Shown here: in pieces, positions 666 through 35,351 of the stretch
Position numbering within the stretch: position 1 is the first letter of the stretch
How the letters are laid out: every line of letters starts with the position of its first letter
Assembly (NCBI GenBank): GCA_964016885.1
Contig: OZ024753.1
Location: 1,860,001 to 1,924,000, forward strand
DNA length: 64,000 nt
Source: Eledone cirrhosa
Taxonomy: Eukaryota
Reading direction: 5' to 3'
Translations under genes and position numbers: made by a program
The notes under the pieces: model-generated
The model's input: the letters and a program-made list of their open reading frames with translations, nothing else
What the model was told of the DNA's origin: nothing
Database searches by the model: none

Positions 666-786
666 CAATTTTTGTGTAGATCTCATGCATGTGAAGCTCA
701 ACCTTGTCTCGATGAAACATGTTATATTCAGCTTGTTCAGCAGTTGGTGGGATCAGGTTAAATTGGCGGGCTACAGCATAACTTTC
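666..786 (-). CDS. KCNAB: Kv-beta exon [40 protein letters not shown](G), 121 nt
   Basis: ttgtatag|GAA AGT TAT GCT...AAA ATT G|gtaaat; matches vertebrate [30 protein letters not shown]. Confidence 0.97.
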
Positions 787-2210
787 CTATACAATGTCAA
801 AAGATAATAGAAACAAAAATAGTAAAACCAAAAATTGAAGAAAACATTATTTAAAAAAAAAAAATCATATTGAGAAATATTGATCACATATTTAAGAAAT
901 AAAAAACATAGGCGTGAATATTTCCTATGTTTTTAATATCAGAAATAATATAGTTTGGTTAAATGAGCATGGTAGACAACTCAGTAATATTTGCACCTTG
1001 CAATGATTTGTCAGCAAAAGAACACACACTCACACACGCGTATAGAGAAATTCGTTTACAAATTTAAAAACTGGAAGGATATAGATGAAAAAGTTATATC
1101 GGCTCCAAATACGATATTTATTACAATAAACTGTACATAAGGCTACATACAATTAAAAAATATATATATATATGAATTCCTAATATGCAAGTTGATCCAC
1201 ATGTAGAGCAAATTTTACATTAAAATATATTACCAAACAATTATATCATAATTTGATTTACATGTTTCATCCGAATAGGACTCGGATTTCACATTGGCAC
1301 TCAAATGAATAATTATACATTAAAAGAGTATTGTATAAGTAAAGTTTCTTTTTTGCAAAGATACTAAGTTCATCTACCATATATATATATATATAATCAT
1401 CATCATCATCATCATCGTTTAATGTCTATTTTCCACACTAGCATGGGTTAGACAGCAGTTGTCCCACCTGAGGCAAGATTGGTCGGGTGACCGTGTCTCG
1501 CTCGTATAGGACTGTCTGCCCTTCCTATTCCTAACACCACACACACACACATATATATACACGCGCGCGCGCGTGCGCGTGTTAAGACATAAGATAGTAA
1601 ATTTAGTTAGAGTTAACTCCCTTGAACTGGGCTGTTAAATTACCAGATCAGAGAAATCAACCTACTCATTTCCACTAAACGAAACCCTCATAATTCGCGG
1701 TATAAATGAAATGGGAAGTTGTGCTATTAATATATTTACATAATCATTGACAACAGATGCAAATCGTTTAAAGTAAATGGCGCCATGGAATATTTGAATG
1801 CTCAAAATTAAGGATATAGGTCCAGTGTAGTCTTTGATGGTAATCCAGTTGCTTAATCCAAGGATTTGGTAATGGTAGTGTCAATAGGAGTAATTGCCTG
1901 CACATGTTTAATATAGTGAACAAGAGAACAAGAAAACACAAATATCAACAAGATAGAATAGGGTGTATATATACACAAACACATATGTACATATATCATC
2001 ATCATCATCATCATCATTTTACGTCCGCTCTTCCCTGCTTGCAAGGGTGGGACGGGTCCTATTCAGCATAGCATCTCTCCACTTGTCACGGTCCTTCGTC
2101 ATCTCCACCGTGAGCTTCAGCTATCTGAGGTCTGCTCTCACCACCTCTGCCCATGTTTTTCGTGGTCTTCCTTCCACTGGCATTTCCTGGCACTTCTTCA
2201 CCCATCGGTC

Positions 2211-2242
<32 letters not shown>

Positions 2243-3153
2243 GTATATACACTCACTCATTTTTTTCTTCTATCACACACTCAGCCATTCTGAGTTCAAA
2301 TCCTACCGAGGTTAACTTTGCCTTTCATCCTTACAGGGTCGATAAAATAAAGTACCAGTAATGTACTGGGTAATTGCTGGCCTTGTGCCAAAAAAGTAGA
2401 AACAATTATATATATATATATACATTCACACACACACAATATATATATATATTGATATATAATGTAACAATTATGTGGCAGTATAATTGCTCAATAAGAG
2501 AATTGAAGCTAAAAGTCCAACATCTCTAAGAGATTATATATATATATATATATATGTGATTATATATATATATACATACACACACACACATTCATATATA
2601 TATATCATCATCATCATCATCATCATTTTACATCCACTTTTCTCTGCTTGCAAGGGTGGGATGGAAACTGATTCTGGCTTGATTTCTACAGCTGGATGCC
2701 CTTCCTAACACCAACCTCATTTACAGTGAGTGCTGGGTGCTTTTTTGCCGTGGCACCTCCACGACCACTTTGCAGTGGAATGATAGGGACCCCAGTCCCT
2801 ATCATCTCATTTCTACAGCTGAGTAAACTGGAGCAATGTGAAATAAAGTGTCTTGCTCAAGGAAACAACACATCACCCAGTCTGAGAATTGAACCCACAA
2901 CCTTTCGATTGCAAGCCCAATGCTCTAACCACTAAGCCATGTGATATATATATATATATTAAAATACAAATATTAATAGAGTAGAGTGCTTCCAATCTAC
3001 TGTAAAACTCATTCTTTGATGTACTCATTGAATCTTGTTTAACTCTTTAATATATATATATATATACACACACACATCCATATATATATACACCCACACC
3101 CACATATATATATATATATGCACACACATCCATATTTATTTATCTCTACCCAT

Positions 3154-3200
<47 letters not shown>

Positions 3201-3221
3201 TCCACGTAATTATACATGCAT

Positions 3222-3262
<41 letters not shown>

Positions 3263-3663
3263 CATGCACACACATCCATATTTATTTATCTATACACACA
3301 CACACATATATATATATATACATGCATGCACACATATATACATACACATACACACATCCATATATAGATATACATGCACACACACCCACATATATATACA
3401 TGCACACACATCCATATTATATATATATATGCACACACATCCATATCTACCTCTCTCTCTCTCTCTATATATATATATATGCATACACACCCATATATAT
3501 ATATATATACACACATCCATATATAGATATACATGCACACACACCCACATATATATACATTCACACACATCCATATTTATATATATATATGCACACACAT
3601 CCATATCTATCTATCTATCTCCCTCTCTCTCTCTCTCTATATATATATATATGTATACACACC

Positions 3664-3711
<48 letters not shown>

Positions 3712-3826
3712 CACATCCATATATAGATATACATGCACACACACCCACATATATATACATGCACACACATCCATATCTATCTATCTCCCTCTCTCTCTCT
3801 CTCCATATATATATATGCATACACAC

Positions 3827-3865
<39 letters not shown>

Positions 3866-3998
3866 TACACACCCATATATATATATACACACATCCATAT
3901 ATAGATATACATGCACACACACCCACATATATATACATGCACACACATCCATATTTATATATATATATATGCACACACATCCATATCTACCTATCTCC

Positions 3999-4036
<38 letters not shown>

Positions 4037-4603
4037 GCATACACACCCATATATATATATACATATATACACACACCCATATTCTCTAGGGTTGGGTAAT
4101 AAGGAAGATGCCAGTCTTTTATTCTAAAGTCCTCCTTCACATCCGTTTTCCTCACATTAGTATTTACTAATATTTATTTTACATGTAACGCTATGTAACT
4201 ACCTTGATTAACTCATCATCATCATCATCATCATCATCATCACCATTTTACGTCCGTTCTTCCACGCTAGCATGGGTTAGACGGGTTGTCCTGTTGTGGG
4301 CAGTGTCCGGTCGGCTGACCTTGTCTTGCTCATACATATATAATCATACCATGACTGAATCTTAACCATCTACCATGTCAGGGTATGTCATGCATCATCT
4401 TATTTTATCTGATGAGGATGTACTGTTGAACTTAACTCAGTACCTCTGAAATATGTATAATAAAATATAATTGATCACAAGAATATCTATTTTGTTAATA
4501 TTTTGAATTAATATTAATAACTCTGGAAAACCTTTTTGCTGTTGAGTGCTTCCAATATATTGTAAAACTCATTCTTTGATGTATTCATTGACCCTTGTTT
4601 AAC

Positions 4604-4648
<45 letters not shown>

Positions 4649-7600
4649 GTATACATATTTATATATATATATATGTATGTACATACGTGATGCCCATGAA
4701 GGACGATAGCTGTATAAAAAAGTGCAGGGCAATAAAAATAGACGGTAGCCACGGAGTAGGCAGACCCAGAAAAACCTGGGACGACTTGATAAATTCCGAC
4801 CTCACACACTTACACCTCTCCAAGACAATGTCACTGGACCGAGATCTTTGGCGGTACTCAGTAATAGAGAAGACCCGCCTTACCTAAATACAAAGTAAAA
4901 CCTACTACAGTCAGTAGGCATCTCTAACAAAATACACCCCCGTCCCACTACCCCCACCCCATCCACACCACCCCTTTCAATGTAAAGTTATGTTGGTACC
5001 ACAACATCCAGGCCGAAACAAATGAGGTCGTGTAGGTGTCACAACAAAAAACACACAGTCCACGCTGTAATGTGGCCGTGTAGGTAACACGGTAAAAACC
5101 TCCCAGTCCACACTGTAAATGTGGTTGGTGTTAGGAAGGGCATCCAGCTGTAGAAAACCCGCCAGACAGTCCTATGCAAGCAAGACAACCACTCTTGCCT
5201 CAAGTGGGAAAACTCCCGTCCAAACCCATGCAAGCGTGGAATATGGACATTAAACGATGATGATGATGATGATATATGTGTGTATATATATATGTGTGTG
5301 TGTGTATATATATATATGTATATATATGCATGTATACATACACATGTATATACATACACATATATTTACACACACACATATATATATATACACACATACA
5401 CACACACACATTATATATAAGTGGTTCAGTAGATTAAATCCACTCCAGTGCATTGCTGGTACTTTATTTTATCAACCCCTCACCTCTCCTGTAAGGATAA
5501 ATGGCAAAGTTAATTTCAGTAGGATTTGAACTCAGAATGTAAAGGGCCGTAACTCTACGCCATACAACATCTTGTCCGGCGCTCTACCGATTGCTGCCAA
5601 AACACCGAACCTGCTTTTATTTTCTCGGTGAAGAGGAAAATATTATAAAAAGTAAATTTATAAATATATAAAAAAAGGGACCAAACTAGTTGGGTTTACT
5701 AAATACTAAAGAGGGAGAAATGGAGGTAAAACGGTGGTGATGGTGATGATGGTGGTGGTGGTGGTGGTGATGGTGGTGGTGGTGATGGTGGTGATGGTGG
5801 TGGTGGTGATGATGGTGATGGTGATGGTGGTGGTGGTGGTGGTGATGGTGGCGGTGGTGTTGGTGATGATGACGGTGGTGTTGGTGGTGGTGATGACGGT
5901 GTTGGTGGTGGTGATGATGGGTGTTGGTGGTGGTGATGATGGTGTTGGTGGTGGTGATGATGGTGGTGGTGGTGATGGTGGTGGTGGTGATGATGATGGT
6001 GGTGGTGGTGATGATGATGGTGGTGGTGGTGATGATGGTGGTGGTGGTGGTGGTGGTGGTGGTGGTGGTGGTGGTGGTCGTGGTGTTGGTGGTGGTGATG
6101 ATGGTGATGGTGGTGATGGTGGTGGTGATGATGATGATGGTGGTGGTGATGATGATGATGGTGATGATAATGATGATGATGGAGAAAGATAAGGAAAGAG
6201 AGAAGAGGTTAAGTTATGTTTTTTTATCTGAGAAAAAAATTTTAACTAAAAAAATACAAGAAAAAAAATATAAGAAAAAAGAAAGGGAATGAAAAATATA
6301 TATATATATATATATATATCTGTTTGTGGCTGATGGCTGAGAGAAAGGAGTACTCAATGCCGAAGTAGAGTTTTGATATTCATTTTATTAAGGCTAAATA
6401 TCGAGTCGTGTTACTCTGGAGTTTCACCTGTTAATCCCAGAGTTATCATATAAGAACTGTTCTTGACTGATGACCCCGTGATAAACTTCTTTAAGATAGT
6501 TTATTTACAATAATGTATAACCTTACCGGTTTCACAAGTTTCATGATTTTCAAAAGTTAAGAGAGATGGAGAGATGTGTCGCTATACCGACTCGAGACTT
6601 GTGAAACTGATAAAGTTATAAATTATTTTGTAAATAAACCTTCTTAAAGACTCCCACGAGGGATATATTAAAAAATTTTACTTTTGAATATATATATATA
6701 TGTGTGTATATATTTACACAGCTGTAGAAATGAGTTGCAACATCACTGATGCCAAGGTGTATCAGCCATTGCTTTTCCATTGAACAACAATGGTTGCATG
6801 GAGAGAGTAGGCTGGTATGCATGGGCAACTGCTGGTCTTCCACAAACAACCTTGCTTGGACTTGCACCTCACAATACAAACTAGTGTCTTTATTCTAATA
6901 CTGCAAATTTTCTCAAAGATCCACACACTGGTAAAAATACTATTAACGATTGAGCTAATAAACATGTTTTAAGATATTTACAACAAAATTGTTACAAGAT
7001 ATTAAGATTAAAGTCGACTTTACCATGATTTCTGTTGGTGTCCAGCGGGAGGTGCCCCAGTACATAGCCCATCCTTGATTGATGACAAATGTGAAGGCAC
7101 GGACAATTTCTGGAAACAAATAGAAAAAAGATTTTTTAAAATAAGTAAGAGAATGATGATTTATCTGAAAAATAAAATGAAATAATAGGTTAATTTTAAT
7201 CATTAAGTATGTTTTTTTTTATTTGTGACAGCCCATTGTGGTTAAGTGGATAAAGAATTGATATTTTTTTAATTTATTTATTCAAGGAGTACAGCACCAA
7301 TAAACCTCTTTCAGGGATCTACAAGACTGGTGGTAGGCACAAGCACGGCTGAATGGCTAAGAAGTTTACAATGATTAAGTCCAAGTTCAATCCCAATGCT
7401 TCACATACTGAGCAAGTATCATTTCTCAGAGCCTTGGGTCAACCTATGCCTTGTCAGTGAAATTGGATAGATGGAAACTATTCATAAGCCTTGTCACATG
7501 CTGTCATGCTGAATCTCACTAAGAATTATATTGAGGGTACACAGTCCTGTGGAATGTTAGGCTACCTACAAGTTAATTTTGTGAGCACTGAAACATCAAA

Positions 7601-10600
7601 ACCAACAGAGGTTCATTCCTCCCTATATCTATGACAGCTTTCTGTAGAATTATAAGAAATGTTAATGAGAATATATAATATATATTGGTTTATTGTCAAC
7701 CTGTATATAATTTCGTATTTATTCAGCTCCTAAACCTTTATAGGAAGCAGCAAATTGACAGAGTTGTTAAAACATCAGATATTCTGTTGATCGAATAACT
7801 GAAACACTCTTCATTTAGACTGATGAAGCTCCATTTGAAGACTGGCGGGAATGAGGAAAATATAATAAAATTAGAGACCTGGTCTGAATATTTGCAAGAG
7901 ATTGGACTTGGTTAAAGTTATCTAATGGCCATATCATGGTGTTAAAATAGGTGACTGATTAAATGTACCACCTGAGTAAGCCGCAGTTGAATTTAAATTC
8001 AGAACAAAAAGAGCTGGAAAAAATATTGCAAACCAGCCTACTTGATATTCTAACTAATTCATTAATTTACTGACCTAGCCTGGTACTTTATTTATAGACA
8101 TCAATACGATGTAAGGCAAAGTTAATCTTGGCGGGATTTGAACACTGAATACAAAATGCTGACATAAATAATACAAGGTATGTTATTTATGTATAAAATT
8201 GTAATAGTACAAGGCTTATACCAAAGCAATAGTTATTCTTAATATGGATAAAATATGTATAAAGTATTTATTCACTGTGTCAATTTAATCAATAATTTTT
8301 AAGTCACATAATTTAACATTGCCTTTTATCTTTCAAGGATCAATAAAATATATACCAATCATATATTGCCATCAATCAATCTGTTAAATCAATAGCTGGC
8401 TAAATATTAACAACACATTTCCTAGGCAACCAGTATTTTAACCATGTTTAACCAAATTTGGCAACAAAATATTGATTCATTAATATAATATTAAAATAGA
8501 GTAAAATCTGGAATATAGTGAAACTGGTGATGGTCAGTGAATGTAAAGTCCAGAAGATTGATAAAGTTTATTTCATCAATTTAGCCTTTTGGTTGAGAGT
8601 GAAGAATTATGAACAAAACTGAAATTAAAAGATTGATTTGGTAAACAGAGGGATTACTAAGTTAGCGGGGTTGCAATAAAAGGGAGTGAGAAACCAATGG
8701 GGCAAGGTGATGGAGGAGAAGGATCAAAATATTAGATGGGAAGAGAGATAGATGAATCCCTCAAACAACATTTACCCCTTTCAATACTAACCCACCTGAA
8801 ACCACCCTGGTTTTATTAGACACATCTGTTCATTTTAAAATGTATATAATTATATTCAACCTTCTGTGATAATTTTATTTAAGCAATTTTTGTTAAGTAA
8901 TGTTCCAAACTTTAGTTTACAAAAGATTAGTTATCTCATTAAATTTTTCCAATTTTCAAAATTAATTGATAGAATAGGCAGTGTATTTTATTTGAAATTT
9001 ATACATTTGATGTTCTTGGCCAAACTGGATAGTTATGCATTATTGATGGTATTTCATGTTTAAATTATTATAGTTATTATTTTTGTTATTATTTTTGCTG
9101 TTTGTTGTGAACCATCAAGTTCCACTTAGATCATTATTCTAGAATTACTGAATAGAATTTTTTTGTTGTATTTACAAACAAAAGGCTTCAGAATATTTAA
9201 ATGTTAAATGTTTACACCATTACCTGGAACAAGGAAAAAATGAGATTTTATTAAGTACTTATATATTTTTACAAACATCTATTTTGCTTTGTCTATTAGG
9301 GGTTTAGTATGGCCATCTTTGTAATATTAGGTACAAGTGCCAGCCACAATGGTGGTAGCATTGAATGCCCACCAAAAATGGTGGTAGCAGTGAAAATCCA
9401 TCCAAAACGTTAGCAGACACAGAGACAACAAACAAACAAACGAAAAAAAAGAAGAAAATTAGAAAATAATGACAATTAGACAAAGAGACACATTTATAAA
9501 CACAATTACAATATAAAAAAAGCAACAAAACAAGACACAAAATTAGCAAAAATGCAAATTTAAACAACAATAACAAAAGCACAAATAGTGAAGAACAGCA
9601 AATAATCTTTTGCTAGTGTTGCAAAGTAAGGAAACACTGCATGGATCTTCTGATAATATGGCTTGATTATATTAAAGCATTTGATTCTATTTCTAAATGA
9701 TGTTTGCTGAAATCATTACACTTGGCAAAATTACCAGCTACCTTAGTCACTGCCATCAAAAGGCTCACAAAATCCTGATCAATAAACCTCACACATGTAA
9801 CTGAAATCAGAACAATGTTTCTGATATAAATAAAGAGAACATCCAAGGAGACAGTCTGTCTATACCTCTGATTATTTTGGCATTAAATCCTCTGTTTTTC
9901 TTTTACAAAAATCCAGTGGTTATATGTCAAGGTCTACAAGAGCAAGAGATGCCAATGTAACCCACAATTTCTTAGTAGATTATTTAAAGATCTATACTAG
10001 ACACAATGCTGAGAAACTGCTAAAGTTATTAACATTTTCAATTGATAAAGGGATGGATATTTGTCAAAAAGAAGTGTCTATATTTGGTTAGTTGAATACT
10101 GATTAATACTGAGAAATTGTTTCATAAAGCCTCTATGGCCTCTCTATCTGCCCTACACTACACACAAAAGCTACGAATATCTAGAAATTTACAAACATAT
10201 TTCATACAGAGGTACGGTGAACAAACAATATTATACCAGACTTTAAATAATATAGCAGTCTGAGCAGTCCCTTTACAAAGTATACTGATACTAATATTTG
10301 GGATACTTAACTAGTCTGTAAAGCAAATTCCATTCCATAGATATTAAAACACACACAAGATCCTAACATTGGTTGAAAACCTCTACAGAAACAGTGATAT
10401 CAACAGGTTCTAAGAGAAAAGGAGAGGAGATTTTTGAAATTAGTGCAGACAACATTTGAGTGTCATGTGGTTTCACTCAGACAGAATCTGCTAAAAGATA
10501 AATGTAGCAACAATAAATACATCAAAGCTTAATAGTGAGGAGGTCATCCTAAAGGTCAGTAGTGAAGTCCTCAAGAATTACTCACTTCTAGATTACCTCC

Positions 10601-13600
10601 TATGTAACCCCAGAATTGCTGGACTTGTTCGTATACCCTAAGAAAGACCTAGAAAGAAACATTCAGCATACCATAAAAATGTTATGCATGGTTATGTTCC
10701 CTGAAAACTTGAGGATGATGTTAACATTGACATGAAGTATAGCACCTATTAGACTTGTAATTGTTACATCACTTCACGCTTTGAAATATATGCTTTTGAA
10801 ATCTAAGGTGGATACATTTCATTGTAAAAGTTGACCATTTCTACCATACTTATATATAGTATGATGATAACGATGACAACAATCATGATGATAATGATGA
10901 TAGTATAAATGAATGTTTGTGTGTGCAAGAGTGGGCAGACATATAAGTAAGTGCACAAGCTGATCTACAATAGCAACATGAACAGCAATAGCAAAAATAG
11001 TAATAATAATTGTTTCTACTTTTGGCACCAGGCCAGCAATTATCCCAGTGCATTACTGGTACTTTATTTTATCGACCCCGTAAGGATGAAAGGCAAAGTT
11101 AACCTCGGCGGGATCAAGGCCAACAATTTTTGGGGAGGAGAAAGTCGATTAAATCAACCTAGTGCATTACTGGTACTTTATTTTATCGACCCCATAACGA
11201 TGAAAGGCAAAGCTAGCCTCGGCAGGATTTGAACTGAAAAGGTAGAGGGCCATAATCCGATGCTCTACCGATACTGCCAAACACCACCCTATAATAATAA
11301 TAATTGTTTCTACTTTTGGCACAAGGCCAGCAATTATCCCAGTGCATTACTGGTACTTTATTTTATCAACCCCGTAAGGATGAAAGGCAAAGTTATCCTC
11401 GGCAGGATTTGAACTCGGAATGGCAAGGGCCGTAACTCTTTGCATCAAAGCATGGTGTCCGACCCTCTACCGATATTGCCAATCCACCGCCCTATACTAA
11501 TAATAACAATAATAATAATAATAATAAAACCAGTAATGATAATTATCATTATCATCATCCACATCATTTCATGTTCCCTTTCCATGCTAGTATGGATTAA
11601 ATGTGTTATAATTGTTTCAGATCTTATTTGGAGTGACTGCCCTTCCAGACAGGTTGACGGACTATATCATACTCATATATTCCATTATTGGCATAGTTTC
11701 TATTACTAGAGGTTGTACATTACACAAACGACTTTACAGAGTGTACTGGGTGTATTTTATCATGGTATCATTATATAGGGGGGGGGGTCTGTCCTCAGCA
11801 AGACTAAAGGGTGCTCTCAACCTTACACTGATTTTACTCATTTGTCAACCCCTTTACTGAGTGTTCTGAATGCTTTTAATTATGGTACCATGCAAGAAAA
11901 TATTACTACTGTAACAGCAACAGCAACAACAAAAAAAAAAACAATAATATACAAGTTATTTATTAGGCATGAATATAGAAATATATATTTTCCAGTTTTG
12001 CTATCTTTCAAGCCTTTTCTTCTGGCATAGCAGAAAATATATGCAAATATAATGAAATAAACAAAAATAAAATTTTAAAAACTTGCCTAAAATAAAAGTT
12101 GAATTTTTGAGAGAGAAAGTGGCAGCTATATTAAAGAAATACTCACCACTCATGAATAAGGGGTCGAGCAAACTGATGTTGGAATTTACATCTGGTGTGT
12201 GGAGCGTGAGGGAATAGTGAAGAAGTAACTTTAAATGTTAAAGGGACTGGATGAAGAAAGGCAACACACAATGTTGGTAGGTGCCAAGAGAAACAGCAGT
12301 AAAAGAAAAAAAGATGAATTTTACCAAAAAAAAAAAAAAGAGAAGCAGGACACTCAATTAACCCTTTTGATACCAAACCCTCTGAAACCAGCCCTATATC
12401 TGTTGTTGTACGTAAAAGGAGAGTAATATTTGCTGGACACTGCCATGTGCCACCTACGAGGCTGTGTCCCCATTAGTGCTTTGGAAACCACAAGCAGTCA
12501 CTAATAACAGGGGGCACAGGCTCTCCTACCCCGATGTCATCTCCAGAGATTCTGGTATTGAAATCCAGGACTTGGCAACGGCAATGAATGACAGACCCAC
12601 ATGGAGATCAAATGTTGAGTCCATTTCAGCTGAGGCCACCGGATGATGATTTCTATAATATAAAACTCCTTATTTAAAAGTGTTTATATTTATCTAAAAA
12701 ACTTCCTTCATAATTTTATGTAGGAACCTTTGTAAAGTTATGCTCCAAACACCAGGTGAAAAAGTTATTTTACTAAATCCCTTGAAATTCTTGATTATTT
12801 TTCAAATCATTTGAACATTATAGTGTCTTTTATTAGAAATATGGTAACAAAAGGGTTAAGGAAACAAATCTCTCAACATTGAAACTTTCATTTACTTCCT
12901 AGACAAATTAAAAGATTCACACAAAATAATCAACAACAAACAAGAAAACAATAAGGAATATATACAATGGATGAGACAATTATTTTGATATGACACATTA
13001 TGTATATATATATATATATAAACATATACATACATGCACCCACTATATTACACTTACACACTCATACAAATATACATCATCATCATCAACATCGTTATTT
13101 TTATATCAATCTGATTGAGCACTCATGATGAAAGACATTCTAGCTAGAATCATTCCATCCTATATATACTGCTCGGAGTTGCAACCAATAGATAGTATCA
13201 GCAATGGAAAGACCAATGGAAACATTGTTTCCTTGGTCCAATTTGACAAGCCCCACCCCACTTGGTAAGTGAATGCGGTCTGGGATCTTGTCAATCGATC
13301 TACCCACTTCAACAGGTGCATATACACTGAGTAGACTTATGTTTTAGAATGTAACTAAGGTATCTGGTTACTAGTAAGAAAGATAGGAAGTTTAAATCTT
13401 ATAAATAGTTGTATGTTGAGTCCTTGGGTAAAGTATTCACCTATATCATATTTATAATTTCAACTAAGATGGTGTCGAGGTGAGATGTTTAGCTCCATGC
13501 TATTTCAACTAGAAAATTAACAACCAGTTTGTTTGAATGTACTTTTGAATGTTAGCCAGCTCATTTATAAGCAAGTATACAGACACACCCATATATATAT

Positions 13601-15563
13601 ATATATATATGTATGTAGACACCCCCATATATATATATACACACACAGACACACACATATATATATGTACGTAGACACACCCATATATATATATATGTAC
13701 GTAGACACACCCATATATATATGTACAGACACACCCATATATATGTGTGTACATAGACACTCATATATACAAGGTGTCCCTAAAAATATATACACACAGG
13801 CAATATTTATTAGAAGGCTGTTGAAGTGTGAATACATTTTTTATATATATATCATCATCATCATCATCATCACCGTTTTACGTCCGTTCTTCCACGCTAG
13901 CATGGGTTAGACGGGTTGTCCTGTTGTGGGCAGTGTCTGGTCGGCTGACCATGCCTTGCTCATACAGGAACTGATCTGGCTTGATTTCTACAGCTGGATG
14001 CCCTTCCTAACACCAACCTCATTTACAGTGAGTGCTGGGTGCTTTTTCGTGGCGCCTACACGTCCACTTTACAGTGTGGGCTGGGTGCTTTTTTGCCGTG
14101 GCACCTCCACGACCACCTTGCGGTGGGGGGGGGGGGCATATTGTTTATATGCTTCAGCATGTACCCATGGGAGGTCGGGTACCCTGTATTACTGCGTGAC
14201 GCCAGAAGTCACGGTCGTGTGTCATTGACTTTGAGAGGTGTAGTTGGGTAAGGTCGGCTTTTATCACCTCATCCCAAGTCATCTTGGGTCTCCCCACTCC
14301 GCGGTTTCCATCAACTTCTAGTGCTCTGCACCTTTTTATGCAGCTGTCATCCTTCATACGCATCACATGTCCATACCAGCGTAACCGCCTCTCCTGCACG
14401 CAGCATTTGATTCCTCTTATGCTCAGTCTCTCTCTCAATTCATTTATGCTTTGTCGTTCACGTATATTACTGTTACACATCCATCGGAGCATGCAGGCTT
14501 CGTTTCTCTCTAATCTACGTAAGTCTTCCACCTTCAGCGCCCAGGTCTCACTACCATGCAACATCGCTGTTCGGATACACGCATCATACAGTCTGCCTTT
14601 CATTCTGAGGGAGAAGCCTTTTGCAGCTAGCAGTGGTAGTAGTTCCCTAAACTTCTTCCATCCCGTTCTTACCCTAGTTATTGTACTTTCTGAGCACCCA
14701 CCTCCGTTGCTAATTCGGTCACCTAGGTAGCAGAAGCTGTCTACTGTTTCTACAGGGCCCTCCCAGAGATTGGTGGTACTTGTTTCCTGTGGCTGTTTGC
14801 TTGCTGTTTCAGCACAGCTGCTGCATGTGAATCCTACATTCTTAATTAAGCTTCCTGAGATCCCGCTACATCTCTTGTGTACCCATTGTTTGCATTTGGG
14901 GCAAAGAATGGAGTTCCTACCTACACCTTTCCTACATACTGAGCAAGGCCATTTCCCTGAGGGGATCTGGGTTCTGTTTTCTCGTCTACTTATAAGGACC
15001 TTAGTCTTTGTCATGTTGACTTTGAGGCCCTTTCTCTCTAGTCCCTGCTTCCAGGTTTGGAATTTATTCTCTAGTTCTACCATAGATTCAGCTATGAGTG
15101 CGAGGTCATCAGCATACAGGAGTTCCCATGGGCATCCGGTCTTAAACTCCTCCGTTATTGCCTGCAGGACTATGATGAACAGGAGAGGGCTAAGAACAGA
15201 GCCCTGGTGGACCCCAACCTGTACGCTAAATTCCTCGCTATACTCATTGCCAATCCTAACTTTGCTGACTGCTCCCCTATACATGGCTTGTACCGCTTTC
15301 ACAAGCCATTCATCTACTCCTAGTTTTCTAAGAGCCCACCAGATTACTGCACGTGGAACTCTGTCAAAGGCTTTCTCAAGGTCGACAAATGCCAAGTAGA
15401 GTGGCTTACTTTTAGCTAGGTACTTTTCCTGTAATTGCCTCACAAGGAAGAGCGCATCAGTGGTGCCTTTCCCTGGAACAAACCCAAATTGCATCTCGTC
15501 TATATTCACCCGGTCCCTAATCAGCTGTGCTATAACTCTTTCTGTTACTTTCATGACCTGGTC

Positions 15564-15615
<52 letters not shown>

Positions 15616-16689
15616 CGCGTGTATATAATTATTCTTTACACTATGCATATATCATCATCATCGTTTAACATCCATTTTCCATGCTAGCTTGGGTTTTATA
15701 TATATATATCACCACCCCCACCCCATCCACACCACCCCGTTCTATGTAAAGTTATGTTGGTGCCGCGCCATCCAGGCCGAAACAAATGAGATCGTGTAGG
15801 TGTCACGACAAAAAAACACACAGTCCATGCTGTAATGTGGCCGTGTAGGCAACACGGTAAAAACCTCCCAGACCCACACTGTAAATGTGGTTGGTGTTAG
15901 GAAGGGCATCCAACTGTAGAAAACCTGCCAGACAGTCCTATGCGAGCAAGACAATCACTCTTGCCTCAAGTGGGACTACCCCCGTCCAAACCCATGCAAG
16001 CGTGGAACACGGACGTTAAACGTTGATGATAAGTGTGTTAGCTTGTGCTCACACACACACTTACACAAACACCCTGACACATGCACATTACAGAAACCAA
16101 ATATTTTATGCCAAAATTCTAGAGAATTCCAAATATTTACTAAACAGCCGATGAATCAACAAAGGAAGAGTGAGAGAATACTGGGTAGAAAGTGGGTGAA
16201 GAAAACTATAGAGAGTTTGTTACACTTCTCTAATAACTGATGAACTTAATTTATCTCAAAACAAAGCATAGCACGTGTATGTATGTGTACATATATATGC
16301 ATGTGTGTGTGTGTGTATATATATACACACACACATATATACTGGTCATATCTAATGACTTCGTTTCAGTTTTATTTATATATATATAAAAATTGATGAG
16401 CAGAACAAACAAAAGGCCGGGGTACCGAAATTAGGCTGCTCAGCCGTTAATATGCATAAGGAAAGTATATACTTTCAGACGTTCAACCATCTGGCAGGAA
16501 GGTATACGTTGCTGACGATAGCTAATAAGCTTGAAACTAGTACAGCGTTCCTTTGTCAGTGTTGAACTAACGAGCAACGATGGTTGCTAGACACTGAACG
16601 GCTTAATACGGGATGTTTGTTTACAAACACACCGAGCATTATAATAAATGTTCGGTGAATCCATACGTTCATATATATATGTGTGCATG

Positions 16690-16725
<36 letters not shown>

Positions 16726-17017
16726 CTACTGTATGTCTGTATACATATATGTATGTACGTACGTATACATACTTATATATATATATATATCTGCATATAT
16801 ATATCTACATATATCTGCATATATATATATATCTACATCTATATATATATATATATATCTACATATATCTGCATATATATATATATATATATCTACATAT
16901 ATCTGCATATATATATATATATATATCTACATATATCTGCATATATATATATATATCTACATATATATATATCTACATATATATATATATATCTACATAT
17001 ATATATCTATATATATC

Positions 17018-17074
<57 letters not shown>

Positions 17075-20000
17075 GCATATATCTATATATCTATATATAT
17101 CTATATATCTGCATATATCTATATATATATCTATATATATATCTAAATATCTATATATCTATATATCTATATATATCTATATATATATCTATATATATAT
17201 CTATCTATCTATCTATCTATCTATGCTCTAGAAGAAACCCACCTTATGTTATCTGAGAGCTATATAGATGGTATCAAGGTATCTAACAACAGCTGGCAGT
17301 GTAACAGGATGAAACATATTCTTTGAGTTGTTATCTTTCCTAAAACTTACTTTTCACTCTTCTCCATTTACAACTTGTTGCTATTTTTATTATCAATTCT
17401 ATTTTTATTTGCAGTTTCTTTTTCTTTTTTTATTTGTTTGTTGAAAAAAAATAATGATGACTACTTTAAGTACATCATCGTCATCGCCATTATAACCATC
17501 ACCACCATCATCATCATTACTATCATCACCATCACAACCATCATCATCACCATCATTACCATCATCATCATTACCATCGTCATCATGACCACCATCATCA
17601 GCACCATCATGACCACCATCATCATAACCATCACACACATATATATACATGCATACTCGGCTCAAATACCTGCAGCTGAGTTGGTTCCATGAAACAAACA
17701 CATGGTGGTATTAAACTGAAGGGCATAAATTAAGTCCATCATGCAAAGGTAATTGAAATTCCAGACTACATGTGAGAGAGAGAGAGAGAGCGAGCGAAAG
17801 ATAAGAGGAGAATGAAAAAGAGGTTGGTGGAGAGAAAGAGAGCAGGAGGTGCAGGGTAAAAAGAGGTATAAAATATAGACTTAACACTTTAGCATTTAAA
17901 CCGGCCATATCCGACCAGAATTCTGTCATCTCTTTCTGTTCAAACCGGCCATAATCAGCTGCTCATACTGATGTAAAGGCATTGTTCTCAAAATAAACAA
18001 TATCAAAATCTCATAGATTTAATATTATGTGAGGTAAAGCCGTTACCATGAAAATACAATAGTTTATATAGAGTAATATAAATGCTAAAGACTTAAAGCA
18101 TAATTAGTTTTGGGATTTGACAATGTCCCATTGCTTACCTTCCATTGGTGTTTGTGCACTGGGTTTGTTGGCAAACACTATATCAACATAAGATAGCTGC
18201 AGACGTTCTAGAGATCCCCTCAATCCTATGGGAGAGAATAAAATGTAAATATTTATTATATTAAAGCTGTAGTCCATGTCTTGTAAAATGTCTTGCTAAA
18301 AAGCAGATCGAAAGAATGTGTGTTTGTTATATATATATATAATGTGTGTGTGTGATGTGTAGGTATGTGTAAAGAGACAATAAGAATAGTGAGAGAGAGA
18401 AAGAGAAAGTGGTATTTAGTTCCAATGCTTTACGTTCTAAGTTCAAATCCCACTGGAGTTAATAAGATAAAGTACCACTCAAGGAGTGAGGTCGACTTCA
18501 TCAACTTTGCAAGGCCAAGGACCTCAAATTTACTGGCCTTGCAACAACATTTTCCAATACTATGCTCAAAGTTGTAATCTAAGTTGAATCAACTTTGCAT
18601 TTCATCCTTCCATGGATTATAAAATGAAATCCAGTCATGTACAAAGGTTAAACCAATCGCCTATACTCCTCACAGATACGTGTTCTTGTACAAAAAAACA
18701 AAAACAAAAATCAATTTCAAGGGGACAGTTTTAGCAATGTTGGTGATGTTGTTGTTGTAGCTATTATATTTAAAAAAAATAATATTGCTGATGTTGTTAT
18801 TGCAGGTATTCTCTTACTGTTATTGTTGTTCAACCATTAATAAACTAGCTTTTGTATTGTTTGATTAAATCAACCCTCTTTTATTGCAACCAGTAATCTT
18901 GGATCCCAATTTAATTTCCTGCTATATTTTTTTCCAGGAAGGTTTTTCATATTTGCTTCTATATGCATGTGCATGTATATATATATATGGATGTGTGAGC
19001 CTGTCAATATATGACTGCATTAATGTTTTTGATTGTGTAATTTAATTAAAAAAGAAATGTTATGTCACAAGGATTATGAGAGTGATTTATAAAAAATATA
19101 TAACAAATGCTTCTGTACCTTCAATGATATGTTTACGAGAAAGGCCTTTCTCTGTTTCGGCACGGCTAGGAAAGACAAAAAGAAATGGCAGAAAGATTAA
19201 TTATCTTCAAGTGAACAGGAGAGGTTTATATTAATGTTAAGATAATGAAAGTTGTGTCTATTGTGAAGGCCATGTAGTTTAGTGGTTAAGGTTGGGTGAG
19301 GGGGGGGGGGCATCATCATAAGCTTGTGAATTTAATTGCCCAACCAAAAAAAGTGAGGGTGCATTGTGTTCTTGAGCAAAGCACTTCATTCCACATTACT
19401 TACATACATTCAGTTGAAAATGAGGCAAGCAGGAGCTTGTTGTTAACCTTGTTATGGATTGGCATCCTGTTCAGGAATGGATAGTTTTGTACTTTCAATT
19501 GCTTAATACTATATGAAATTGAGACTAGCTCAAAAAAGATTTTAATTCTTACAGTAATCCAATATATAACTGGTACTTTATTTTATCAACTCTGAAAGAA
19601 TGAAAGGCTAAGTTGACCTTGGGGTGGGATTTGAACTTAAAATATAAAGGGTCATAACTAAATGCCACAAATCATTGTCTGATACAATTCTGCCAACCCA
19701 CCCCATATTTGTCATAATTGTTTCTACTTTTGGCACAAGGCCAGCAATTATCCCAGTGTATTACTGGTACTTTATTTTATTGACCCCTGTAAGAATGAAA
19801 GGCAAAGTTAACCTCGGCAGGATTTGAACCCAGGTCGCAAAGGGCCGCAATTCTGTGCTGCAAAGCATGGCTTCCAACCTTCTACCGATACTGCCAGTTT
19901 CTAATTTAGGTACAAGGCCAACAATTTTGGGGGAGGGGAAAATTAAATCCACCCTTTTGTGTTACTAGTACTTTATTTTATTGACCCCATAAAGATAAAA

Positions 20001-20261
20001 GGCAAATATCACATTAGTGGGATTGAAACTCAGAATGTAAAGGGCTGTAACTATATGCCACAAAGTATGTTGTCTGATGCTCTACCGGTTACTGCCAATA
20101 AACATCTATATTGCGTTCATCATTAGTATCAGCATCATTGTTTGGAAAATAAGATTACTTTTATGTCTAACTACTTACTTGCCACTCCAATGAATCTTGG
20201 TTGATATAATATAACTGGAACGTCTAGAGAATGAGAGAAAAGATAATAAATGAGCCTGGCT

Positions 20262-20311
<50 letters not shown>

Positions 20312-20346
20312 AAGAGAAAGAGAAAGAGAGAAAAAGAGATAGAGAT

Positions 20347-20382
<36 letters not shown>

Positions 20383-22832
20383 GGTATGTGCGCGCGCGCG
20401 TGTGCGTGTGTGCGTGTGCGTTCTGATTTTATAATTTTATAAATTTTTACCAATAGGGAGAGAGTCGGTTTCTAACAGACACAAGACTCTTTCATTGAAA
20501 TTTAGACATCGACTAGGTAGATATGGATTTCTTTAGCTCAATTTCTTTCTTTGTATCATTTTTTCCTCACCTATGAATATGTATATTTCTCACCTATCAA
20601 TATGTATATTTAGATTCATATATATGCATTGCATGTTTCTATGTGGTTGTGTGATGTAATTATTATACGTGTGTGTAGATATGTGCATTTTGACATCTAT
20701 GAATTCATATATTCCTATGTAAGTCTTTCTCTGGTGTATGTGTGTATGCATATATGTATGTGTATATATCTGTAGTTGCAAACTAGTGTACTTGTGCATT
20801 GTTGACACTAAGTGTATATTTGTTAATCAGTGTGTATGTAAAGAACTGCATAACATTTATCGATAAGTTAGTTGCTTTCAATTCAACAAGAAAAACAACC
20901 TTTTTTTCTACATATTTGGCAACCCAGCAATACTGAGTACCACTGAAAGTTCCTTACCTCCATCCTTTCCTTTTCAGAATTTTACCTAAAGATATTTCAG
21001 CCCTGAAAAGATAAAATAAAATAGAGACATGTTAAAGACATATTATGAAATTTTAATTAAATGAAGTGTTTTACTCAAGAACACAACATGCAACCCAGCC
21101 CAGGAATCGAACCCACAACATTATGATTGTAAGTCCAACACCCTTACCACTAGGCCATGCACCTCCAATACTATGTTTAACACTACTATGTTATTATTTG
21201 GGTGTCTTTAGCAGAGCCCACTCCATTTCAATCATTCAAGCAGGTCTCCAGCCTGTTGATAACTTCCTCATTTTCTTATACTTTTTCTCAGAAGCTCTAA
21301 CAAATATCATAAACTGTGAACTTCCTTCAATTAAAGTATGAAACAATTTCATTAATTAATCAGACATACGAGTTACTTCACTATATAATAACCTGTTACT
21401 GTTTCATTTTTTCTTTCCTTCCACTCAATCCGAGTAACATTATAGACCATGAACTTCCTCCTCTAATTAAGGTATTAGCAAACATTAATTAATTCATTAG
21501 AGACATAGATATCACACCAACAATGTATTGTTTCAATGCCAAATTCTCAATTAGCTAAATTGAAATCAGTAGAGTTCAGTGTTTTCTCAGAGTTAGAATA
21601 TAATGCCCATGATTTGTGTAAAAACTCATAATACTTCTAAGGCTAAGAATAATCCAAGAAAAATAAAAATTATAATTAATCCATTTGCTCATATTAGCTT
21701 GAACTTTAATTCTTTAATTCCAAACAATTTTTGCAGAAAAGCTGAGTTATGTTTACATTTATATAATAGAATTTGAATAGCTTTCCAAAATAAATCTAAT
21801 CTATTTTGTATTTATACAGTATTTATACTGTGGAACTGTAGGTGATAATTTATAAGATACTGCTGGTAATGTACCTTATTTAACCCTGCCATAACCAGCT
21901 GCTCATACTTATGTTAAGGTATTGTTCTCAAAATAGATAGTATCAAAATCTTGTAGATTCGATATTATGTGAGATAAAGTGTTTACCATGAAAATACAAT
22001 AGTAAATATAGCGTAATGTAAAGACTAAAGGACTAAAGCCCACATCCCACAAAATATACCTCTTGTTAGAGGACTCTTTAGTCTCAGTAACATCTGGAAA
22101 CAATTTAGGATAGAGAAGAGACTTTACTTATACTAATGAATGTGGACAATGTAGGATAAAGAGAAGGCATAAGTCTGCCAGTAGGGGGGGGGGGGGGTGC
22201 AATTCAAGGTAGAGGAGAGTTTCTTGCCAAGTGTGTAACAACCTCTCTTATGCTGGTGCCATGATGAAATGCACAGTACATACTTTATAATGTAGTTGAT
22301 GTTTAGAAGGGTCTCCAGCTAAAGAAATTATGCCAAATATAAAGTGTAGGAGTGAGACATGGTCTTTTAACCCATCTAGGAGGATAGTTACTTCAAATAA
22401 AAACTGACTTAGACTGTGATGATCTACCCAGCTCATGCCAGTATGGGAAGCAGACATAAAAATGACAATAGGGATAAGATGATGATGATGATGATGTGAT
22501 GATGATGTGATGATGTGATGATCAGGATGATGATGATGCAGAGGAGGTGGGCTTGTTGAACTATTTATACTGTGTTGCTTGGCTTCAAATTTCAATGGTG
22601 ATTGTTTAACAGAGTAAACACAACTAAGAATGTATCATGATTTTAATACAATTGGTTAGAGGCTGAGGGCAAAGGAATATAAAGAAAATAAACAGAAAAA
22701 AAAAAAATTTAGAAATAATTGAAGGAAACTTACTTGCCACCTGAATATACCTCAGCAGTATCAAATATGTTGATCCCACTCTCATAGGCTAATGTTAACA
22801 TATCTTCAGCAACCTGAAGAAAAATTATTTCA

Positions 22833-22894
<62 letters not shown>

Positions 22895-25800
22895 CCACCA
22901 CAATATCAGGTTTTACCAGATAAGTTAGTATTATATTAGTACTATATAGTATTATATTAGTACTATATAGTGCACTAAATAATCCTATCACCAGAAACCC
23001 TCTTTGTGCCAGAAACCTTTCAATTGGGATCTTAGTCCACATGGTATCAGTAATTAGTACATGCTGCAATAAAGCTGGTTTTCAATTAGTTTCTATATGA
23101 TGACTTAGGAACTGTTACACAGGTAATCAAAGAGGACTCATAGATAAGACAGGGACTAGCAACCCAAAGTTGTGGTTTAGTGAAGCTGATGTTTAAGCCT
23201 AATGACAATTGATGTCATCACTACTTTTTTAAAGTGTGTATGTGTGTATCTATGTATGTATGTGGTGAATAGAAACAGATAAAACAGGGATCTATTTTAT
23301 GTTATTGTGCTATTCCCCGTAAGAACCATTCTTACAAAATAAGTAAAGACTGGCATTGGGCTATAGAATAGTGCCTAAAAAAACCCCCAAAAAACAGACT
23401 AAGTTCTTTTGAGGCCCTTAAAAACGTTTATGGTGCCAAATATATAAATGTTTATGGTGGCTTATATAAAGTCTAAAAAAGCTTTTTTGTTTTTAGTGAC
23501 AAATACATTTAATTTGAATAAAATGGTGCTCCTCATCAATTGATGCCCTTAGTATGTGCTTATGTTGCTTAATGGCTGACCCAGCCCTACAGCCCTACCC
23601 CCATACCAGTCAGGAAAATTAGACATAAGAAAGATTACAGTGATAATGAGGATGATTGAGTTGATCAAGAAGCTGAGTGGCTACACAGAAGCTATTCTAT
23701 TCTTAATTTCCTCACAACCAGTCAGCTGCTCTGATTGATAACTTTGCTAGCTGTCATCTGTGTTAAGTGACTGTTAACTACATTCAACTGTTCAAAGATT
23801 AACAACAAGCTTCTCTAATTTTGTTTTCTTCCATAATTAAGGGATTATTATTAATGAAATCTGTCAATGTTAATAATTTAAATCTCATTGGGTGTCAAGT
23901 TGTTAAATGTGCGTGTGTTTATTATTAGTGTGTATATGCTAGCAAAATTATGTCTGGCTTAAGTGTTTGTGTGTACGAGTTGCAGATGTGTGTACGAGTA
24001 CATTATATGATTGTCACCAGGATGAATGGACATTAAATGATGATGAAGATGATGAGGATAGCAAAATTAGATTTGTGTGAGTTATAGTTTTGTATGAGTT
24101 GTACGTGTGTTATTATTAGTGTGTATATATGAAGGTTCATGGCTTAGTGGTTAAAACATTGGGCTTGCAATCTTGAGGTTGTGAGTTTGATTCTCCAAGT
24201 GGGTGATGTGTTATCTCCTTGAGCAAGACACTTTATTTCAAGTTACTCCAGTTCACTCAGTTGTAGAAATGAGTTGTGATGTCACTGGTGTCAAGCTGTG
24301 TCGGCCATTGTCTTTCCCTTGGACAACATCTGTGGTATGGAGAGGGGAGACTGGTATGCATGGGTAACTGCTGCTCTTCCACAAAGAACCTAATCTGGAC
24401 TTGTGCCTCAGAAGGGAACTTTCTAAGTGCAAATGCCCTGATCATTTGTGACTAAAGGGGGTCTTTATCCTTTACCCTATATGCAGGGTGGTGAACAGGG
24501 GGAATTAGTAGAGCATTAGACAACATACTTTGCAGTATTTAATAAAGACTTTCTATGTTTTGAGTTCAAATCCTGTCACGGTCAAGTTTGACTTCCATCT
24601 TTCTGGGTTCAATAAAATAAAGGTCCAGTAAAGTACTGTGGTCAATATAATCAACTTTCCATTTATCACAAAATGCTGGCCTTATGCCTAAATTAGAAAC
24701 TCTTATTAATGCATTAATGTGTATATGCTAGTAACATTTTCTGAGTTATGAATTTATGTGAGTGCGTGATTTGCCTGTATGTGTATGTATGCATATTTTA
24801 TGATTACCAGTCAAGAGCACAGATGTTAAATGATAATGATAGCAAAATCAGATCTGAATTATGTGTATATGACATTCATGTGTATGTGTGTTAGTAATTT
24901 ATATATGCTAGCAAAAGTAGGTATGAATAAATTATGTGTTTGTGCGAGTTAACACACAGTTTGGTATATTTCAGTCAATATATACGTGCATGTGTGTGTG
25001 TATGTATGTGTGTGTACCAGCACCAGCACCACCATCATCATCATCTAACATCTAATTTCCCTGCTAGCAAGACCTAGACTGATTTAATATTATTCAGTTT
25101 GTGCTGATTGCAGTATATATGCAATAAATTGACAGAGTTGTTAGGACATTAGATAGAATGTTTTGTGCTATTAATTTCAGCTTTCTGTGCTCTGAATTCA
25201 AACCCTACTGAGCTTAACTTTGCCTTTCATCCTTTTAGGGTCAATAAAAATGTACCAGTCAAATACTGGTATTAAGTCTTCTCTTTCACTTTCTTTTTCT
25301 TCCTCTCTTTCACATTCTTTCTTTCTCACTCTTTTCCTTTTTTCCTCCTCACTCTTCCCCTCTGTCATTCTCTCTCTCCTGCTTTCCTTCCATCCTCTCA
25401 CTCTGAAAGAAGTCATCTGTGGTCAACCCTGGACAGCAATGGGCTTTGCCAGGTTTAAATGTCACAAAAGATCAGCTTATGACACCATCAGGTTTTAAGG
25501 GCTCAAGAATAATGATCAGTAAGCATGTGTTAGTATCAATATGTGAGTACGCATACATATATATACACACACGCATGCACTCGCATGCACTAACTATACA
25601 TACACACACACATATATATATTCAAAAGAAAAAAAAATGGAGAAGTCAAATGTGAAAAACTTACATCGTCTGTAACTTGTGCACCAAATGTTACCCAGGT
25701 ACCTGAGAGAAAAAAATAATATAGATAAACTAAAATAATCAAGGAACATCAATAATCTAAAGAATGCATTCATTAACCCTTTCGTTTCCATATTTGTAGT

Positions 25801-28800: not shown

Positions 28801-29877
28801 TTAAAATTAAGTACAGGGGTTGGTATAATTGATTTCCCCCTCCCCATTAATTGATGGTATTGTGCCTAAATTAGAAATCATAGACAGGTAATAACGTTTA
28901 TGGTATTTAGTTTTAATTTTCTAAATTCTGAGTTCAAATCCTGTCATGCAATACATATATATGCATATATATTCAAATACGTGCGAACACGTGTGTGCGC
29001 GTGCGCGTGTGTGAATGACTGTATATTTATCATGTTTAATATAGAAATGGCTTCTACAGGACAAACACTGTTTAATTCAAAAGAAATCCTTTACTAACTG
29101 GTTACCCCGATTGAACCCGAGACTCATATATATATATATATATAAGAAAGAAAGTGTGAGAGAGATGGGTGAAGACTAATTGTAAATCTGATATTCCTTT
29201 CCTGTATGACATACCTGCTTTTTGCACAGAAGCACACACATGTTTGTGTGGGATATTCAATTATAGTGTAAGAAGATGAAAAGTATATATATTAAGAGAG
29301 AGTGAGGGGGGGGGGGGGGTAAAGTATGGTACATTTCATTCTATTTGAGTTCCTGTTAGTGTGATCTTCCTGTCTGTGTACTGCACCAAACTGAATATCC
29401 CCCTGGCTCACCTAGCTCTGAATGAGGTTATGATGAAGAGGAAGTCTAATAAAGAGGAGATAACAGAACATTCATAAATATAAACAAGACATGCATGAGC
29501 TAATTAAAATAATAAGTCCAGAATAGACTGAAATCTTGGCAAGCTTATTTTTTAACCCTTTAGCATTTACATTACTCTAAATATACTATTGTATTTTTGT
29601 GGTAAAGGCTTTATCTTAAATAATTATCTCACATAATATCGAATCTACGAGATTTTTATATTATTTATTGAGAACAATACCTTAACGTCAGTATGAGCGA
29701 CCAATTATGGCCAGTTTGAACAGAAAAAGGTGAGAGAATTCCGGCCAGATATGGTTGCTTTAAATGCTAAAGGGTTAAATACAGCATGACATAACAATAG
29801 TGTGTATCCGCACACATACACAAACATTTGCATATATACACACACACTTGCACATACATACAAATATATATATATAC

Positions 29878-29908
<31 letters not shown>

Positions 29909-31007: not shown

Positions 31008-31052
<45 letters not shown>

Positions 31053-31778: not shown

Positions 31779-31811
<33 letters not shown>

Positions 31812-34800: not shown

Positions 34801-35315
34801 ACACTAACATTAACAACATCAACATTATCAACACTAACAACACTAACATTATCAACACTAACATTATCAACATTAACAACACTAACATTATCAACACTAA
34901 CACTAACATTATCAACATTAACAACACTAACAATACTAACAACACTAAATATATTTATCGATAAGGATAAATATATAGTTTCAGAAGATCCTGTTAAGGG
35001 TGAAAGCAGTGATTCTTTGCTTAAACTTTAATCTGTTATTTTAATAAATATATAAATATATATATATATCAATATTTATATATCAATATATATATATATT
35101 TATATATCAATATTTATATATATATATATCAATATTTATATCGGTAGAGGGCTGGACACCATGCCTTGCAGTAAAGAGTTACGGCCCTTGCCATTCTGAG
35201 TTCAAATCCCGCCGAGGTTAACTTTGCCTTTCATCCTTACGGGGTCGATAAAATAAAGTACCAGTAATACACTGGGATAATTGCTGGCCTTGTGCCAAAA
35301 GTAGAAACAAATATT

Positions 35316-35351
<36 letters not shown>

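What the first reader, a model, noticed from the sequence alone, without database searches (positions are those of the whole stretch)
12147..12191. 45-nt frame-preserving cassette exon candidate at the PME|EIVRA junction
Seen: perfect gtgagt donor, pyrimidine-rich acceptor, phase 1-1, adding [15 protein letters not shown]. From memory, a vertebrate KCNAB2 isoform has a 15-aa insert (GDPFSSSKSRTFIIE) at this same junction; this needs verification. The sequences are unrelated, so this would be a convergent or ancient alternative-splicing hotspot in the loop just after active-site Asn158 (Kv-beta2 numbering).
Basis: partly seen in the sequence, partly recalled or inferred. Interest (0 to 1): 0.7.

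Follow-up and report, generated by a model that had tools for sequence, protein, structure and literature searches.

The report
Likely pseudo-exon in octopus Kv-beta intron
A 45-base stretch inside a long intron of an octopus potassium-channel beta-subunit gene has splice-site letters and keeps the reading frame, but it is likely a chance look-alike of an exon, although vertebrates do carry a conserved insert of the same length at this spot.

Summary
The 45-nt AG..GTGAGT segment (12191-12147, minus strand) is there, is phase 1-1 and adds 15 residues in frame. The recalled vertebrate insert is real: 15 aa at the same junction in pig, catfish and a third Kv-beta2 record, with shorter versions in two beta3-like proteins. 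The octopus exon itself has no support. Its acceptor is C/A-rich, with 2 T in 17 bases against 8-13 in the gene's 13 real acceptors, and scores -0.6 against 4.8-15.1. Four other segments in this intron score as well or better. None of 24 cephalopod proteins that reach the junction has an insert. Its peptide matches the vertebrate one no better than 22% of random intron windows. The intron is old, yet 12 other invertebrate copies share no cassette. No RNA was available. Verdict: likely pseudo-exon (0.83); real convergent exon about 0.10. The scan has not noted this on other DNA.

The parts
12147..12191 (-). Candidate 45-nt segment (AG..GT, phase 1-1, open frame); likely pseudo-exon
   Evidence: scores
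12141..12146 (-). Donor-like GTGAGT, 7 of 9 consensus positions with the last three exon bases
12192..12211 (-). Weak C/A-rich acceptor region, 2 T in positions -20..-4
12247..12345 (-). T-rich tract with 107 nt free of AG, ending in a stronger AG (12248-12247, score 6.8); joined to the same donor it gives a 100-nt frameshifting exon
18139..18225 (-). Upstream constitutive Kv-beta exon, holds the N158 equivalent, ends phase 1
7024..7109 (-). Downstream constitutive Kv-beta exon
7110..18138 (-). Host intron, 11,029 nt, phase 1; position shared with other invertebrates
12358..12859 (.). Stretch bounded by 18-nt inverted repeats, holding a high-copy repeat at about 12396-12650 (6652 first-look candidates in the genome, 40 scored); ends about 165 nt upstream of the candidate
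14157..15635 (-). Reverse-transcriptase ORF (RVT_1, E 2.7e-29) inside the same intron, likely a LINE-type retrotransposon piece
666..37276 (-). Nine coding exons of the Kv-beta gene inside the window (37276-37233, 25702-25665, 22813-22734, 21002-20958, 20223-20179, 19165-19119, 18225-18139, 7109-7024, 786-666); four more lie left of the window

Best explanation
The segment is likely a pseudo-exon: a chance pairing of a good donor-like GTGAGT with a weak AG 45 bases upstream, in an 11-kb repeat-rich intron of an octopod Kv-beta gene, which the spliceosome would skip so that 18139 joins 7109. Shown: the splice letters, the frame, the T-poor acceptor, the background rate of such segments, the lack of an insert in related proteins. 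Inferred: skipping, because 3' splice-site recognition by U2AF needs a uridine-rich tract (established knowledge) and this one has 2 uridines.
For: Acceptor scores -0.6 against 4.8-15.1 for 13 real sites (-4.9 against 3.0-13.5 with a second matrix). 5 equal-or-better frame-preserving segments in this intron, candidate included, 1.74 expected. 15 open AG-45nt-GT segments in the intron, 14 expected. 23 of 25 members of three fully read cephalopod clusters read straight across the junction, one more begins at it without an insert, one does not reach it. 60 listed of 87 oyster, mussel, abalone and snail cluster members show no insert. A search centred on the junction listed no insert form among the best 120 of 2314 hits. 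The candidate's frame finds no protein of 42-137 aa. Peptide shares 1-2 of 15 residues with vertebrate inserts; 22% of 4867 open intron windows score as well.
Against: The length equals the vertebrate insert exactly; chance for one fixed length is 0.066, 0.096 with a GTRAGT donor, 0.059 with YAG, and 0.0055 if 12 of 17 pyrimidines are also required. It is the only segment in 104 kb, both strands, that meets the strict criteria in phase 1, and its donor beats 95% of background GTs. Regulated exons often have weak acceptors (established knowledge), and the score matrices come from only 12-13 constitutive sites. The protein differs from O. bimaculoides and O. sinensis, so no model examined is from this species; score-ranked searches with insert-free queries favour insert-free hits, and assembled contigs drop rare isoforms. 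Convergent neural exons at the same position are common in bilaterians (10.64898/2026.09.05.749416, section read).
Confidence: 0.83

Rival explanations
1. A real, lineage-restricted, probably neural cassette exon that arose independently of the vertebrate one. Inclusion would add 15 residues at the start of the helix after the N158 strand and could tune NADPH binding, tetramer contacts or channel modulation.
For: Frame, phase and a good donor; same length as the vertebrate insert, chance 0.006-0.1; unique sequence in the genome; GC 0.40, between intron 0.35 and most exons 0.34-0.49. The site tolerates an insert: in the model of catfish P0189 the last 10 inserted residues extend the helix (H258-278) and the barrel is kept. 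Same-position convergence of neural exons is documented.
Against: T-poor acceptor and no TGC within 22 nt of the AG; a stronger AG 55 nt upstream would compete; no insert in 24 cephalopod proteins reaching the junction.
Confidence: 0.1
2. The donor is real but pairs with the stronger upstream AG (exon start 12246), giving a 100-nt frameshifting poison exon that would send the message to nonsense-mediated decay; the 45-nt form is a misreading of it.
For: That acceptor scores 6.8, inside the range of real sites, has a long T-rich tract, 107 nt free of AG and a TGC 16 nt upstream. The joined frame hits a stop at the junction. Poison forms would be absent from protein sets.
Against: The tract lies just beside a repeat element and may be its by-product; no transcript or conservation evidence.
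Confidence: 0.05
3. An ancient exon homologous to the vertebrate Kv-beta2/beta3 cassette, kept in this octopod and diverged beyond recognition.
For: Same intron, phase and length.
Against: The vertebrate peptide is strongly conserved (identical in P0309 and P0423, 11 of 15 in catfish) but shares 1-2 of 15 residues with the octopus one. No shared cassette in 12 distinct invertebrate introns of 211-1689 nt. All 7 length variants among 96 anchored representatives were checked by eye: five have names and are vertebrate, P0309 and P0423 included; P0349 (+1 aa, not at this junction) was not looked up.
Confidence: 0.02

Closest known systems
Vertebrate KCNAB2 (Kv-beta2) 15-residue insert isoform (pig A0A4X1W2Z5; A0A4W3HIL7; catfish KAM9445093.1)
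   Same: Same junction (E167|E168), same 15-residue length; with and without forms exist in catfish.
   Different: No sequence likeness; the vertebrate peptide is conserved across species and echoed in beta3-like proteins (13 aa catshark XP_038642635, 12 aa snake XP_026578464), while the octopus one appears in no protein examined. Whether the vertebrate insert is a cassette or a shifted splice site was not testable without genomic DNA.
Intronic pseudo-exons (cryptic exons) of long, repeat-rich metazoan introns
   Same: Canonical AG/GT, one good site and one weak site, several equals in the same intron, beside repeats.
   Different: Happens to keep frame and to match a vertebrate insert in length.
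Type I convergent neural exons of bilaterians (10.64898/2026.09.05.749416)
   Same: The class this would join if real: different exons arising at the same coding position in orthologous genes (section 10 read).
   Different: That class is defined by RNA-seq inclusion; the main text has no mention of KCNAB or Hyperkinetic; its supplements could not be seen.
Kv-beta / Hyperkinetic (AKR6) gene family
   Same: Host gene: exons match O. bimaculoides XP_052827990.1 at 87.5-100% over most exons; that protein matches Kv-beta2 structures at E about 1e-157.
   Different: Nothing unusual in the constitutive protein beyond one extra residue before the AETEK motif.

Membership tests
Kv-beta (KCNAB/Hyperkinetic, AKR6) host gene | Aldo-keto reductase domain closest to Kv-beta2 | tested here: met
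   13 exons splice to one stop-free frame; orthologue P0054 hits PF00248 at 2e-56; P0002 hits Kv-beta2 chains at about 1e-157
Kv-beta (KCNAB/Hyperkinetic, AKR6) host gene | Asn at the position of Kv-beta2 N158 | tested here: met
   alignment; the active-site role of N158 is recalled, and the review searched does not mention it
Alternative cassette exon | Canonical AG and GT with compatible phase and open frame | tested here: met
Alternative cassette exon | Donor as strong as the gene's real donors | tested here: met
   7 of 9 consensus matches against 6-8; 6.1 against 4.8-10.1
Alternative cassette exon | Uridine-rich tract before the AG | tested here: not met
   2 T against 8-13; score -0.6 against 4.8-15.1
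Alternative cassette exon | Inclusion in transcripts of this species | not testable with these tools
   no RNA run listed for this stretch
Alternative cassette exon | Insert present in isoforms of related species | tested here: not met
   0 of 24 cephalopod proteins reaching the junction; all from other species, rare isoforms may be missing
Alternative cassette exon | Genomic conservation in other cephalopods | not testable with these tools
   no other cephalopod genome is held; no look-alike window
Orthologue of the vertebrate Kv-beta2 15-aa exon | Same intron position, phase and length | tested here: met
   vertebrate phase is inferred from the protein only
Orthologue of the vertebrate Kv-beta2 15-aa exon | Sequence likeness | tested here: not met
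   1-2 of 15 identical, BLOSUM62 -4 and -11; 22% of random windows as good
Orthologue of the vertebrate Kv-beta2 15-aa exon | Presence in intermediate lineages | tested here: not met
   none shared in 12 distinct invertebrate introns; none in 60 listed mollusc cluster members
SRRM3/4-type neural microexon (features recalled) | UGC motif close to the 3' splice site | tested here: not met
   no TGC within 22 nt of the AG
SRRM3/4-type neural microexon (features recalled) | Neural-specific inclusion | not testable with these tools
   no RNA run listed

The most novel reading that the evidence does not exclude
An octopod lineage independently evolved a 45-nt neural cassette exon in the same ancient intron, with the same length as the conserved jawed-vertebrate Kv-beta2 exon, so that both big-brained groups lengthen the helix next to the NADPH site by 15 residues as a splice switch on the redox sensing of Shaker channels.
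Probability: 0.1. Interest if true: 0.55.

Novelty: not a real feature. Interest (0 to 1): 0.15.

Why it matters
If the best reading holds, it does not matter: long octopus introns hold several such look-alikes. If the exon is real, it would be a clean case of same-site, same-length convergence between cephalopods and vertebrates in a redox-sensing channel subunit, and one RT-PCR would show it. The better-founded lead is the vertebrate insert: it is identical in two distant records and echoed in beta3-like paralogues, none of the 12 Kv-beta2 sequences with solved structures is annotated as or long enough to suggest it among the 5 alignments shown, and six paper searches returned nothing about its function. 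That library lacks most subscription journals.

Tried and rejected
No RNA holder listed for 6900-12400; three runs of one study of unknown kind hold the stretch. Search with the candidate's own 78-aa frame: no protein of 42-137 aa shares three words; longer proteins were not searched this way. Extension of the upstream exon by a later donor: the frame stops after 11 codons. Extension of the downstream exon by an earlier AG: the nearest T-rich AG is 55 nt away, out of frame. A 57-nt form from the stronger AG to the GT at 12189 keeps length in threes but makes TAA at the junction (and the sequence). A hidden homologue of the vertebrate peptide elsewhere in the intron: best windows score 21 or less and lack AG/GT ends. 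Repeat origin of the segment itself: 12100-12300 matches only itself, though that search skips common words. Rfam: only two weak tRNA-like hits elsewhere. Atlas look-alikes of the vertebrate insert were not obtained. Papers: PMC9741552 (passage and one supplement searched) names KCNAB2 without describing this insert; PMC4605305 (passage) lists a KCNAB2 splicing event without naming the exon; 10.1101/274449 (passages) reports a 14-aa isoform gap in skate Kcnab2, position not given in what I saw; PMC9317154 (passages) gives nothing on it; some searches were seen as listings only, apart from the preprint read. Scan notes: nothing similar.

Full report
Host gene. The window lies in a 3.0-Gb genome. 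Its minus strand holds nine coding exons of a Kv-beta gene, with four more in the neighbouring stretch. Thirteen exons splice to one stop-free frame. Most exons match the Octopus bimaculoides protein P0002 at 87.5-100%, and P0002 matches solved Kv-beta2 chains at E about 1e-157. The differences from O. bimaculoides and O. sinensis show an octopod other than those two. The junction in question is E167|E168 in Kv-beta2 numbering, nine residues after N158, in the first turn of a predicted helix.

Observation. The segment is as described: AG at 12193-12192, 45 nt, GTGAGT at 12146, phase 1-1, 15 added residues without a stop. The donor matches 7 of 9 consensus positions, as good as the real donors (6-8). 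Its 12 pyrimidines in 17 bases are 10 C and 2 T, while all 13 real acceptors carry 8-13 T. On a model trained on those sites it scores -0.6 against 4.8-15.1, a level that 20.6% of 31,524 background AGs reach. A stronger AG lies 55 nt upstream (score 6.8, 107 nt free of AG); with the same donor it gives a 100-nt frameshifting exon.

Chance. I counted look-alikes in 304 kb of this contig, both strands, known exons masked. Under criteria cut to fit the candidate, 0.04-0.16 are expected per intron of this size; slightly looser criteria give 0.4-0.9. With acceptor at least as good and donor at least 7 of 9, 1.74 are expected and 5 occur in this intron, the candidate having the lowest acceptor score of the five. 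Against my reading: if the length is fixed beforehand at 45 nt, the chance is 0.066, 0.096 to 0.059 with a GTRAGT donor, and 0.0055 when 12 of 17 pyrimidines are also required. The last criterion was chosen after seeing the candidate and ignores its lack of T. The matrices rest on 12-13 sites, so all these figures are rough.

Relatives. Three cephalopod clusters were read in full, 25 proteins: 7 O. bimaculoides, 3 O. sinensis, 1 O. vulgaris, 1 Argonauta, 1 cuttlefish and 12 unnamed assembly proteins that cluster with the cuttlefish. 23 read straight across the junction, one starts at it without an insert, one does not reach it. Of the first 188 proteins fetched, 162 could be anchored and all 162 had the same spacing; these were ranked by score to insert-free queries, which favours that result. 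Of 113 further cluster members, 106 had no insert, 1 had one and 6 could not be anchored; 60 of them were molluscs, listed from clusters of 87 members. The candidate's own reading frame found no protein of 42-137 aa.

The vertebrate insert is real. Catfish P0189 carries GNPFNTSKTRTFIIE at the junction and its cluster mate P0184 lacks it. Among 150 representatives, 96 could be anchored: 89 had the usual spacing and 7 differed. P0309 (pig) and P0423 (named kcnab2b; organism cut off in the output, recalled as elephant shark from the accession) carry GDPFSSSKSRTFIIE. A catshark beta3-like protein has 13 related residues and a snake beta3-like protein 12. Two fish beta3 models differ by 2 and 7 residues and may be annotation errors. 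So the vertebrate insert is old and constrained. The octopus peptide shares 2 of 15 residues with the catfish form and 1 of 15 with the pig form; 22% of 4867 open windows of the intron score as well. In the predicted structure of P0189 the last 10 inserted residues extend the helix (H258-278) and the first ones are a low-confidence loop (249-257), with the barrel kept. The site can therefore likely take an insert, which says nothing on whether the octopus uses one.

Age of the intron. A pattern search in metagenome contigs returned 20 animal-host loci with an AG right before this exon. Fifteen of the 20 hold the whole intron, in the same place and phase, as 12 distinct sequences of 211-1689 nt. 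They share no cassette, none resembles the octopus or vertebrate peptide at splice-site ends, and 7 of the 12 also hold chance open AG-45nt-GT segments. The hosts are unnamed and many look closely related, so they are few independent lineages. An old intron position makes 'same junction' a small coincidence, and the lack of a shared cassette argues against an ancient exon.

Mechanism. Most likely the spliceosome joins 18139 to 7109 and ignores the segment, because its 3' site lacks a uridine tract and sits behind a better AG. The skipping is inferred; no RNA could be examined. The surroundings fit ordinary intron turnover: a high-copy repeat inside an inverted-repeat-bounded stretch just upstream and a reverse-transcriptase ORF at 15635-14157. 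The segment itself is single-copy. Rivals are a real convergent cassette (0.10), a 100-nt poison exon using the same donor (0.05) and an ancient homologue (0.02).

What is known. Same-position convergence of neural exons is described as widespread in 20 bilaterians including O. bimaculoides (10.64898/2026.09.05.749416; section 10 and passages read; no mention of KCNAB in the main text; supplements not visible and may list it). A true exon here would thus be a new member of a known kind. Six searches found no paper on the function of the vertebrate 15-residue insert, in a library that lacks most subscription journals.

Verdict. Observation partly confirmed, vertebrate recollection verified, octopus exon unsupported and most likely not a real feature. 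Interest 0.15; the novel case has probability 0.10 and would deserve 0.55.

Noticed in passing
P0309, P0423, P0189, P0386, P0344 (protein records): The vertebrate insert is identical in two distant Kv-beta2 records and has related 12-13 residue forms in beta3-like proteins, so it likely predates the split of these paralogues. Its end resembles the end of the exon two upstream (5 of 15 identical, best-scoring window in the protein core but only BLOSUM62 10), a weak hint of origin by exon duplication.
   Followed up: partly
L001:7112-6804 (left of the window, minus strand): The stop codon after the last core exon is followed by about 70 codons in frame that match the tail of O. bimaculoides model P0055 at about 90%. 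An earlier scan note reads this as stop readthrough with a CaaX end.
   Followed up: partly
window 54962-54849 (-); L001-L024 region: about 70687 and 94170 in window numbering; L003:1085-1002: Alternative ends of the gene: a 114-nt in-frame exon matching the long N-terminus of P0001/P0063, two separate first exons further upstream, and a last exon about 26 kb downstream that is identical to P0002.
   Followed up: partly
window 12246-12147 (-): Possible 100-nt poison exon with a much better acceptor than the candidate's.
   Followed up: partly
window 15635-14157 (-): 493-codon open frame with a reverse-transcriptase domain and a weak PHD-finger hit, inside the intron.
   Followed up: partly
L025-L044: The intron after this exon has a GC donor in 11 of 20 animal-host loci and a GT donor in the other 9; the octopus has GT.
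   Followed up: no
window 39722-39793 (+) and 2878-2941 (-): Weak tRNA-like Rfam hits (38.4 and 29.9 bits), possibly heads of short repeats.
   Followed up: no
window 20179 (-): Octopod Kv-beta has one extra residue at this exon boundary compared with Kv-beta2 and the cuttlefish-cluster proteins; GT dinucleotides also lie 4 and 7 nt downstream.
   Followed up: no
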